From NCBI GenBank assembly GCA_964425305.1, contig CAYRMQ010000001.1, positions 1,786 through 65,785 on the forward strand: a stretch of DNA of 64,000 nt, in the 5' to 3' direction. The notes beneath the pieces were generated by a model. It was not told where the DNA came from. It searched no databases and was given only the letters and a program-made list of their open reading frames with translations. Position 1 is the first letter of the stretch; every line of letters starts with the position of its first letter. The stretch comes from an uncultured Anaerolineaceae bacterium (GTDB lineage Bacteria; Chloroflexota; Limnocylindria; Limnocylindrales; CSP1-4). Shown one piece after another: positions 25,539-29,340 of the stretch. Position numbers and translations under genes: made by a program.

Positions 25539-25567
25539 CGAAGCCCGGCAGATTCTGCCGAGCTTCG
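25539..25567 (+). terminator. putative terminator hairpin after fdh
   Basis: CGAAGC..CGGCAG-ATT-CTGCCG..GCTTCG nested hairpin, 21 nt after the stop, followed by GTTGGTG. The U tract is weak. Confidence 0.4.
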
Positions 25568-25941: not shown

Positions 25942-26096
25942 GAAAACACTCCTTCTCATGCGGCCTCAGCGAACCTGTCTCGCCGAAACCGAAGAGAGGG
26001 AGTGATCGTGTGCCGCGCCTTGGTGGCGCCCTTCCGGCGCCGGTCGACAGTGTAACAGGTTTCGGCCATCAGGCCGAACGCATGTTCGAACCCCGA

Positions 26097-26297
26097 CTAG
26101 CGCGAGGAGGCCGATCGCGGGACGCTTTCGCCGTCGTCGATCGCGCCGCGCTGGTGGGGGGCCACGTTGCCCTTGAGGCGGCGTTCACGTTCCACATCGC
26201 CGGGCAGCGCGTCGCTGTCGCGCCAGCGTGGCAGCTGCCAGTCAAACTGGGGCTCGTCCTGCTCGGGCGGGTCATTGAAGCGATGCTCAGAGTTCAC
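26097..26297 (-). CDS. small hypothetical protein (66 aa, acidic/Arg-rich)
   Basis: The GTG start shares a GTGA overlap with the stop of the preceding mini-ORF. Third positions are G/C-rich. No family recognised. Confidence 0.4.
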   Translation of the reverse strand: MNSEHRFNDPPEQDEPQFDWQLPRWRDSDALPGDVERERRLKGNVAPHQRGAIDDGESVPRSASSR

Positions 26298-26488
26298 CGG
26301 CCCGCATCCTTGTGCTGGCGGACATGCAGCGTCCACTGCGACGGAGCGCCCATCCTGCTGGCGCTGCTGCCCTGCCAACCACAGGCGCACCTCACCTGCT
26401 CCGCGCGATGGCGGTACTCATCGATGACGTGCTTGATGGGTTGAACGAGGCCGATGTCAACCAATGGCCGAGGGCGGCTGAAGGTCAT
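26294..26488 (-). CDS. small hypothetical protein (64 aa)
   Basis: The ATG shares an ATGA overlap with the stop of the 30-codon ORF. About 80 percent GC3. No family recognised. Confidence 0.45.
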   Translation of the reverse strand: MTFSRPRPLVDIGLVQPIKHVIDEYRHRAEQVRCACGWQGSSASRMGAPSQWTLHVRQHKDAGR

Positions 26489-26577
26489 GACACGCTCGCC
26501 CGCACGTTGACGGCGCGCGGGCCGCGCGCGCCCGATTCCAGGTCGGAGATAACCTTCGTGATCCTACCGGTCGTCAT
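26485..26577 (-). CDS. 30-codon leader-like ORF (MTTGRITKVISDLESGARGPRAVNVRASVS)
   Basis: GGAGGG lies 5 nt upstream of the ATG, and a 7-bp-stem hairpin abuts the SD. This is the C-terminal tail of the otherwise implausible ORF 26485..27174. Confidence 0.3.
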   Translation of the reverse strand: MTTGRITKVISDLESGARGPRAVNVRASVS

Positions 26578-26848
26578 GACGACCCTCCGTTCTCCCGAGA
26601 GGTGAGAACGACGCAGGGCCGGAGCTCGAGAAGTCGGCGACCTCACGCTGCATCGTGCGGCGATGCCCGTGCAGTGTACGCCGACGGCAGCGAGAGTGAT
26701 GTTTCCTCGACTCTGAAGCCTGGCGAGGCGTCTTGCCAAGCGGTTGCCGCAGCCAGGAGGTGCCGACGGGGCGGTGACCGCCGGGCCCGCGTTGGCCTCG
26801 GTCGCCGTCGTAACGCCGGCTCCTCCTTGGGACTTGCTTTGGCCCGCC

Positions 26849-27283: not shown

Positions 27284-27580
27284 GGCCTGCCCTCCTGCAC
27301 GAGCCGGCCCGAACCCCCTGGGCTCCTGACCCGGCGTCAGTCCGGGTCGGCAGCCGGATTCTCCGCCTGGCCGGCCGGGCGACCAAGGCGCTTATCCACA
27401 ATCACGCGCGCCTGTAACGGGCATGCAATGTCTGGTGCCAGATGGCACCACTTCATGGCGCGAGACACGAGGGCGCAACGACGATGCGGCGCTACACAAT
27501 GGATCGTCTTTGCCTCGAAGCCCAGAGTCCTCTTGTGCCTGGTGCCCAAACCGGGCGTTGGCTAAAAGGTTCGGGTGGTC

Positions 27581-27682
27581 ATGCGCTGGTTCGTTCTCTC
27601 GATCATCAACCGGCCCACAGTCGCCATTGCGGCAGCAAGCACTGTCTGGCTACTGATATTCGCGGCATACCTGCTCGCGTAA
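27581..27682 (+). CDS. possible 33-aa hydrophobic membrane peptide (MRWFVLSIINRPTVAIAAASTVWLLIFAAYLLA)
   Basis: Below the track's size cutoff. GC3 is about 73 percent in a region of about 60 percent GC. The SD is weak. Confidence 0.3.
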   Translation: MRWFVLSIINRPTVAIAAASTVWLLIFAAYLLA

Positions 27683-27833
27683 GTCGCCTCCTCAACCTGG
27701 AAGGGCCGCGCAACCCGAAGGCGGCGGAAGCTCGGGTTCCCGGCGCAAGTCGCGAGAAAGTTTCCGTCTGCGTTCTGTTTTGCCGGTGGCTGACCCACAC
27801 GAGCACACTTCGTGCCGATAAGGAGCCGTGCCC

Positions 27834-28004
27834 ATGAACGTCAGCGTCGTTACCAACCCGGCGAGCGACACCGAGCTGCGTAACAGCATCGAGCGATTGC
27901 TGGCCGACGATGCCGACAGTCCAGGCCAACTCGAGTCAAAGCTCAGACAAAGCTTTCCCCGCGCTCGGGTCTTCTACCGCGAAGGGCGCTGGGTCAATTC
28001 CTGA
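27834..28004 (+). CDS. small hypothetical protein (56 aa)
   Basis: AAGGAG lies 8 nt upstream of the ATG. GC3 is about 75 percent. Below the track's size cutoff. A 10-bp-stem hairpin (28048-28071) follows. Confidence 0.45.
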   Translation: MNVSVVTNPASDTELRNSIERLLADDADSPGQLESKLRQSFPRARVFYREGRWVNS

Positions 28005-29264: not shown

Positions 29265-29340
29265 TGGCGCGCCCGGCAGGATTCGAACCCGCGACCTGGT
29301 GGTCCGAAGCCACCCGCTCTATCCACTGAGCTACAGGCGC
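29265..29340 (-). tRNA. tRNA-Arg (anticodon TCG)
   Basis: The reverse complement is GCGCCTGTAGCTCAGTGGATAGAGCGGGTGGCTTCGGACCACCAGGTCGCGGGTTCGAATCCTGCCGGGCGCGCCA. It has a 7-bp acceptor stem, GCTC/GAGC D stem, GGTGG/CCACC anticodon stem with loop CTTCGGA, a GGTTCGAATCC T arm and an encoded CCA. Confidence 0.95.

What the first reader, a model, noticed from the sequence alone, without database searches (positions are those of the whole stretch)
26097..26577. Chain of three translationally coupled small ORFs (30, 64 and 66 codons)
All three lie on the minus strand.
- ORF-a (26577 to 26485, MTTGRITKVISDLESGARGPRAVNVRASVS) has GGAGGG 5 nt upstream.
- ORF-b (26488 to 26294, MTFSRPRPLVDIGLVQPIKHVIDEYRHRAEQVRCACGWQGSSASRMGAPSQWTLHVRQHKDAGR) starts in an ATGA overlap with the ORF-a stop.
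- ORF-c (26297 to 26097, VNSEHRFNDPPEQDEPQFDWQLPRWRDSDALPGDVERERRLKGNVAPHQRGAIDDGESVPRSASSR) starts in a GTGA overlap with the ORF-b stop.
Two consecutive 4-nt start/stop overlaps and mostly G/C third positions are hard to get by chance. I recognise none of the products. The layout (leader-like peptide, basic Cys-containing protein, acidic protein) is reminiscent of toxin-antitoxin or small regulatory cassettes. It sits between an ACT-domain gene and a zinc-ribbon gene on the same strand.
Basis: seen in the sequence. Interest (0 to 1): 0.6.

Follow-up and report, generated by a model that had tools for sequence, protein, structure and literature searches.

The report
Cold-shock operon with hollowed-out csp gene
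The three tiny overlapping genes are a real operon of soil Chloroflexota: a cold-shock protein gene that has lost its RNA-binding middle but keeps its leader and start site, followed by two conserved small proteins of unknown family, and related bacteria have hollowed out the same gene several times independently.

Summary
The ORFs, ribosome site and both 4-nt overlaps are real. ORF-a is not a leader peptide. It is a cold-shock protein (Csp) gene with an in-frame 117-nt deletion that removes RNP1 and RNP2. ORF-b belongs to an undescribed ~62-aa family with invariant His, CxC and His (probable Zn module), found in 165 of 201 genomes of this Ca. Limnocylindrales family. ORF-c belongs to a rarer, probably unfolded family (46 homologues; about 8 of 401 genomes). 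Intact csp-b-c operons with the same overlaps exist elsewhere, and dN/dS is 0.11-0.55 for b and 0.2-0.55 for c. A conserved csp promoter-like site and ~90-nt leader (no Rfam family) lies upstream. In this accessory clade csp has shrunk to 22-30 codons four times with different breakpoints (single origin rejected, AU p=0.002) or vanished, while b and c stay coupled to the leader. Only 5 of 140 other csp-leader loci are damaged. Best reading: a redundant csp decays while its leader still drives b and c through the remnant. Whether the remnant is selected as a coupling peptide is unproven. A toxin-antitoxin reading is not supported. The scan had not noted this on other DNA.

The parts
26673..26678 (-). 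TACACT, a -10-like promoter hexamer at the start of the conserved csp leader
   Evidence: TA(C/G)A(C/A)T occurs at the same place in most aligned csp leaders. Promoter function is inferred; the sigma-70 scan found no complete promoter.
26578..26670 (-). Conserved ~90-nt csp 5' leader: a 5' hairpin, then two interlocking potential helices (26648-26638 with 26621-26612; 26632-26625 with 26599-26592), then the ribosome site
   Evidence: Model R1 finds the leader in 132 of 151 family genomes, and 135 of 140 examined hits precede an intact Csp. No Rfam family. 85% of cells pair, but covariation does not exceed column shuffles, so the structure is a hypothesis.
26583..26588 (-). Ribosome-binding site GGAGGG of csp/ORF-a
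   Evidence: same site and similar spacing before intact csp genes in L095, L096 and L157.
26485..26577 (-). ORF-a: cold-shock protein gene with an in-frame 117-nt (39-codon) internal deletion; junction between about 26546 and 26541, at a short CGAC(C) repeat
   Evidence: DNA alignment to intact 69-aa csp genes shows one 117-nt gap. In L095 the repeat TCGACC lies exactly 117 nt apart. BLASTP to L157 Csp E 2e-9; weak NCBIfam CspA hit E 0.037.
26294..26488 (-). ORF-b: member of an undescribed ~62-aa family with invariant His20, Cys34, Cys36, His55 and CGWxG; predicted three-strand plus helix fold, probable Zn-binding module; accessory paralogue of a core gene on contig C59
   Evidence: 165/201 family genomes, 368 database proteins, invariant columns, model pLDDT 69, tree, dN/dS 0.11-0.55.
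26097..26297 (-). ORF-c: member of an undescribed, probably unfolded family with motifs FDWxSPRWR and QRGAID
   Evidence: 46 homologues by exhaustive phmmer, best E 1.8e-10; alignment A3; about 8 of 401 family genomes; model pTM 0.17; dN/dS 0.2-0.55.
26075..26088 (.). SOS-box-like palindrome CGAAC-N4-GTTCG between ORF-c and a -10-like hexamer (26054-26049) of the zinc-ribbon gene; probably not part of the cassette
   Evidence: One of 7 perfect copies in the genome; others lie just upstream of lexA, a RuvB-like gene and the intact csp.

Best explanation
This is an accessory copy of a csp-b-c operon. Shown: the order promoter-like site, csp leader, csp, b, c with two 4-nt overlaps is the ancestral arrangement. 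In this genome csp has lost 39 codons in frame, including both RNA-binding motifs, so it cannot make a Csp fold. The genome keeps an intact csp on C79 and a core b gene on C59. Inferred mechanism: the deletion arose by slippage or end-joining between short repeats, and was tolerated because the extra csp is redundant. Ribosomes still load at the csp site under control of the leader, read the 30-codon remnant, stop at the ATGA and reinitiate on b, then on c. The remnant therefore works as a coupling spacer that keeps b and c under csp-type control, probably by cold or growth phase. b most likely binds one Zn ion and acts as a small nucleic-acid- or protein-binding partner of the Csp response. 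c is most likely an unfolded protein with short binding motifs, linked to Csp function. The activities of b and c are inferred from anatomy and gene neighbourhood only.
For: 117-nt gap against intact csp genes that share leader, ribosome site and overlap. Complete intact csp-b-c operons in L157, L158 and L104. csp directly upstream of b in 30 of 158 distinct b loci. A Csp-c fusion and c directly under the csp leader (L143). Four shortened csp genes with different breakpoints: 30, 29, 22 and 26 aa; a single origin is rejected, AU p=0.002. Two more clade members have no csp ORF in front of b (L094, L153), and L158 has an ATA start. Only 5 of 140 csp-leader loci in an unselected sample are damaged, none by an in-frame internal deletion. 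Purifying selection on b and c. The RNP1/RNP2 aromatic residues mediate binding and stability in CspB (PMC1636342).
Against: No expression or translation data. Cold control is inferred only from the csp association; many csp genes are not cold-induced (own knowledge). Direct repeats of 5-6 nt in these csp genes are in frame 54-58% of the time, so in-frame deletions are weak evidence of selection. A stand-alone csp with an in-frame internal deletion and no coupled gene exists (L140 minus strand). The cassette sample is small (11 loci) and was found through b and c. dN/dS values average over both lineages, so recent relaxation in this genome is not excluded; the window's b has a long branch. Zn binding and the b fold are untested (best Z 3.1).
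Confidence: 0.66

Rival explanations
1. The whole accessory cassette is decaying. csp simply goes first because it has a deletion-prone repeat structure, and b and c will follow; the coupling has no current function here.
For: The cassette is patchy (about 8/401 genomes) and lies about 3 kb from a tRNA-Arg gene, next to a GC dip. The genome has core copies of csp and b. Cassette b branches are long. c has a GTG start here, and L104 c lacks the FDW-SPRWR motif. In-frame repeats are common.
Against: All four shortened-csp loci keep intact b and c, with their conserved residues and both overlaps, and the window-versus-relative dN/dS stays well under 1. The L140 remnant has drifted far from Csp while its b and c are intact, which implies long persistence.
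Confidence: 0.17
2. The short Csp remnant is itself selected: loss of the RNA-binding core is favoured, for example to avoid extra Csp dosage, or the peptide or short ORF has a regulatory role.
For: At least four parallel reductions in one small clade, plus one in front of a core-type b (L133). The retained codons of ORF-a show dN/dS of about 0.35-0.65 against intact csp in the four alignable comparisons.
Against: The remnants differ in length and sequence (22-30 aa) and share no motif beyond Csp ends. Complete loss of the ORF is also tolerated (L094, L153, L143). dN/dS against intact genes mostly reflects time before the deletion.
Confidence: 0.1
3. b and c are a toxin-antitoxin pair.
For: Two small coupled genes of opposite charge on a patchy element; b-c overlap conserved in 9 other loci.
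Against: b stands without c in 148 of 158 loci and c without b in 7 of 16 other loci. No family hit. b was not found in viral contigs.
Confidence: 0.04
4. The deletion in ORF-a is an assembly artefact and the organism has a normal csp-b-c operon.
For: The two runs that span it fully may be the source sample. The third run crosses the junction by only about 13-18 nt. The run from another study stops before the junction.
Against: Separately assembled contigs of two runs at depth about 10 match with no differences or gaps, and no joint or insertion is listed at this place. A 5-nt repeat is far below usual assembly word sizes (own knowledge). Comparable deletions occur in unrelated assemblies.
Confidence: 0.03

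Closest known systems
Cold-shock protein family (CspA/CspB/CspE; Pfam PF00313 CSD)
   Same: ORF-a is homologous to the first 12 and last 18 residues of 69-aa Csp proteins of related bacteria and sits behind their leader and ribosome site.
   Different: It lacks 39 central residues, including RNP1 and RNP2, has no PF00313 hit, and cannot be an RNA chaperone. It is followed by two coupled genes of undescribed families.
E. coli cspA/cspG/cspI 5' UTR thermometers (PMC13271884, which cites Giuliodori 2010)
   Same: A long conserved leader in front of a csp gene, with potential alternative pairings reaching up to the ribosome site.
   Different: No Rfam family matches. The leader is shorter (about 90 nt; the E. 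coli cspA leader is longer, own knowledge), its structure lacks significant covariation, and no temperature response is shown.
Small beta-beta-alpha zinc fingers (C2H2, UBZ, BED)
   Same: b has a predicted hairpin plus C-terminal helix, with two invariant Cys and two invariant His. Weak structural rows include the UBZ of polymerase eta (Z 2.1, rmsd 1.6, 29 residues) and BED fingers.
   Different: Ligand order would be His, Cys-x-Cys, His. No significant sequence or structure match; a lead only.
Leader peptides and translational coupling through ATGA/GTGA overlaps (own knowledge)
   Same: A short upstream ORF whose stop overlaps the next start can pass ribosomes to the downstream gene.
   Different: Here the short ORF derives from a structural gene by internal deletion, repeatedly, and shows no sensing codons or attenuator.

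Membership tests
Cold-shock protein (PF00313), ORF-a | Homology to CSD proteins | tested here: met
   BLASTP E 2e-9 to L157 Csp; DNA alignment with one 117-nt gap.
Cold-shock protein (PF00313), ORF-a | RNP1 and RNP2 nucleic-acid-binding motifs | tested here: not met
   Both lie in the deleted 39 codons (motif positions from PMC1636342).
Cold-shock protein (PF00313), ORF-a | Complete ~66-residue domain above the Pfam cut-off | tested here: not met
   30 aa, no Pfam hit; only C79 passes in this genome.
csp 5' UTR thermometer | Match to an Rfam csp leader model | tested here: not met
   No relevant family at E up to 10.
csp 5' UTR thermometer | Conserved structure supported by covariation | tested here: inconclusive
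   85% paired against 34-48% when slid, but not above column shuffles; one helix is partly misaligned.
csp 5' UTR thermometer | Temperature-dependent translation | not testable with these tools
   Needs reporter or probing experiments.
C2H2/UBZ/BED-type zinc finger, ORF-b | Four conserved Cys/His ligands | tested here: met
   His20, Cys34, Cys36 and His55 invariant in 81 sequences, though in a different order and spacing.
C2H2/UBZ/BED-type zinc finger, ORF-b | Significant profile or fold match to a known finger family | tested here: inconclusive
   No Pfam or PDB sequence hit; Foldseek E above 2; VIA Z at most 3.1.
C2H2/UBZ/BED-type zinc finger, ORF-b | Zn bound | not testable with these tools
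   Needs a metal assay.
Type II toxin-antitoxin pair (b + c) | Two small adjacent coupled genes | tested here: met
   Overlap conserved in 10 loci including the window.
Type II toxin-antitoxin pair (b + c) | Toxin gene not found without its antitoxin | tested here: not met
   b without c in 148/158 loci; c without b in 7/16 other loci.
Type II toxin-antitoxin pair (b + c) | Known toxin or antitoxin domain | tested here: not met
Type II toxin-antitoxin pair (b + c) | Toxicity and rescue | not testable with these tools
   Needs expression tests.

The most novel reading that the evidence does not exclude
A cold-shock gene has been converted several times independently into a short coupling peptide that is kept by selection, so that an undescribed pseudoknot-like csp leader controls two new Csp-partner proteins (a His-CxC-His zinc module and an unfolded motif protein) without adding RNA-chaperone dosage.
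Probability: 0.25. Interest if true: 0.65.

Novelty: new variant of a known kind. Interest (0 to 1): 0.45.

Why it matters
It turns three orphan ORFs into a defined operon. It adds two small-protein families without Pfam entries, one near-universal in an abundant uncultured soil family, and a csp leader motif without an Rfam entry. If the coupling reading holds, it is a natural, repeated example of a leader ORF arising by hollowing out a structural gene, with intact, shortened, fused and csp-free versions all available for comparison in a reporter. The Csp-c fusion and csp-b linkage point to unknown partners of cold-shock proteins. If the remnant is neutral, the result is more ordinary: a csp pseudogene inside an accessory operon.

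Tried and rejected
Word-indexed protein searches with single b or c found only themselves. These searches are insensitive, since an alignment search and phmmer then found 368 and 46 relatives. The metagenome scan with b returned one false hit, an antisense frame of another gene. The G029 match to c (E 1e-4) is in a frame with no family support and was rejected. The b+c complex prediction gave no verdict and is no evidence either way. No RNA holder was listed for the stretch. The Atlas search for c gave no usable hit; fold searches for b gave no clear match. The long overlapping frames (229 aa ending at the ORF-a stop, 97 aa extension of c, 144 aa antisense) were treated as shadows: conservation follows the short frames. 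Leader covariation was not significant. Paper searches found nothing on cold shock in Limnocylindria or on such csp remnants.

Full report
Observation. The three ORFs, the GGAGGG site 5 nt before ORF-a, and the ATGA and GTGA overlaps are as reported. Third-position GC is 0.81-0.87, like the neighbours. The neighbours are an ACT protein and a zf_Tbcl/TIGR04272 zinc-ribbon protein. Homologues come from Ca. Limnocylindrales and related Chloroflexota bins, and the DNA is held by soil metagenomes.

ORF-a is a hollowed-out csp. In G032 and G033 an intact cold-shock gene lies directly upstream of the ORF-b homologue. L095 and L096 have a 69-aa Csp with the same leader, ribosome site and ATGA overlap into b; aligning them to the window gives one gap of exactly 117 nt. 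The breakpoints lie at a short repeat, TCGACC 117 nt apart in L095, which suggests slippage or end-joining (inference). The missing 39 codons contain RNP1 and RNP2, whose aromatic residues mediate binding and stability in CspB (PMC1636342). The genome has an intact csp on C79. Contigs of runs X1 and X2 carry the deleted form with no differences at depth about 10, but may be the source sample. X3 crosses the junction by only 13-18 nt, and X4, from another study, covers b at 98% and stops short of the junction. An artefact is unlikely but not excluded by independent reads.

ORF-b is a real, family-wide gene. A profile finds it in 165 of 201 genomes of the family and in 368 database proteins. It was not found in 239 genomes of other families of the phylum or in viral contigs. 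His20, Cys34, Cys36, Trp38, Trp52 and His55 are invariant in 81 sequences. AlphaFold gives three short strands and a C-terminal helix at pLDDT 69. There is no Pfam or PDB match; weak rows include UBZ and BED fingers, and Atlas matches are unnamed clusters. Zn binding is my inference. Among 158 distinct b loci, 30 have an intact csp directly upstream. The genome's core b on C59 groups with the copies of G010 and G024 (same genus), while the window copy falls in a separate 11-member cassette clade (support 92/87) scattered over distant genera.

ORF-c is also real. Exhaustive phmmer finds 46 relatives with FDWxSPRWR and QRGAID motifs. It is rare: about 8 of 401 family genomes, none in 31 genomes of the same genus. 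It has no confident fold (pTM 0.17). Of 16 other c loci, 9 have b directly upstream, all with an ATGA overlap. Four others are tied to csp or its leader without b, including an in-frame Csp-c fusion. Three are in neither context. L157 and L158 show the whole ancestral operon csp-b-c with both overlaps. Against cassette relatives dN/dS is 0.11-0.55 for b and 0.2-0.55 for the c core, with changes concentrated at third positions.

The leader. Upstream of ORF-a lie a -10-like TACACT and a ~90-nt leader conserved in front of csp genes. A model finds it in 132 of 151 family genomes. No Rfam family matches. Two potential helices interlock, as a pseudoknot or a switch next to the ribosome site. 85% of cells pair, against 34-48% when slid, but covariation does not exceed shuffles. 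Analogy with E. coli csp thermometers (PMC13271884) is a lead only.

Repeated loss of csp. Within the cassette clade, csp is intact in L095, L096, L104 and L157, has an ATA start in L158, and is shortened to 30 (window), 29 (G110), 22 (G167) and 26 aa (L140) with different breakpoints, each keeping start, frame, stop and overlap. It is absent in front of b in L094 and L153, where b begins at the leader's start site. A tree from leader, b and c columns rejects one origin for the four short forms (AU p=0.002; window plus G110 p=0.027). The sample is only 11 rows and recombination could confound it. By contrast, 135 of 140 leader loci sampled without regard to b or c have an intact Csp, and none of the 5 others is an in-frame internal deletion. 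Two cautions apply. Repeats of 5-6 nt in these genes are in frame 54-58% of the time, so four in-frame events are not strong evidence of selection. And one stand-alone csp also has an in-frame internal deletion.

Mechanism. Shown: operon anatomy, deletion, conservation and selection on b and c, and recurrent csp loss. Inferred: the extra csp is redundant and decays, while the leader and ribosome site are kept; the remnant passes ribosomes to b and then c; so two Csp-associated small proteins remain under csp-type control. I put this at 0.66, against whole-cassette decay (0.17), a selected remnant (0.10), toxin-antitoxin (0.04) and artefact (0.03). The cassette is probably mobile or often lost: it is patchy, and here it lies near a tRNA-Arg gene and a GC dip. 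I did not test a donor.

Comparison and verdict. ORF-a derives from the Csp family but fails its defining motifs. b works, at most, like a small zinc finger and is not a member of a described family. The b-c pair fails toxin-antitoxin tests of co-occurrence and domain content. The result is a new variant of a csp operon, with two undescribed protein families and an undescribed leader. Interest is 0.45. Unpublished genomes G004, G151 and G205 are included in the tallies and probably of the other genome searches; G205 (L092) is one of the 30 csp-b loci. No other claim rests on them.

Noticed in passing
window 26075-26088: Perfect CGAAC-N4-GTTCG palindrome just upstream of a -10-like hexamer of the zinc-ribbon gene. 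The same motif precedes lexA (C57), a RuvB-like gene (C5) and the intact csp (C79), so it is probably this organism's SOS box. It was not seen in 19 relatives' zinc-ribbon loci.
   Followed up: partly
window 25960-26020 (minus strand): The region upstream of the zinc-ribbon gene is conserved at DNA level in several relatives, which suggests another 5' leader element.
   Followed up: no
L090:1100-1420 (G110): A zinc-ribbon gene closely similar to the window's also flanks the shortened-csp cassette in G110, but upstream rather than downstream.
   Followed up: no
L140:2346-2735: Two divergent csp leaders back to back, each followed by an internally deleted csp (39 aa stand-alone; 26 aa coupled to b and c).
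   Followed up: partly
L133 (G112): A 27-aa internally deleted csp a few bases before a core-type b without c: a further independent reduction.
   Followed up: partly
L144:3001-3369: In-frame fusion of a complete Csp with the c domain (P0170), seen in three runs.
   Followed up: partly
L264, L288, L290, L294, L302-L304, L386 (G256): Genome G256 has 10 matches to the csp leader model, far more than the usual 1-3.
   Followed up: no
L380, L291: A glycosyltransferase-like gene placed directly under the csp leader (L380) or fused behind Csp (L291): the leader can capture other downstream genes.
   Followed up: no
window 29265-29340 and 27500-28000: tRNA-Arg(TCG) gene and a GC dip to 0.61 near the locus, consistent with a small islet.
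   Followed up: partly
window 25539-25567 (minus strand): Terminator-like hairpin after the zinc-ribbon gene; none was found between ORF-c and that gene, so read-through is possible.
   Followed up: no
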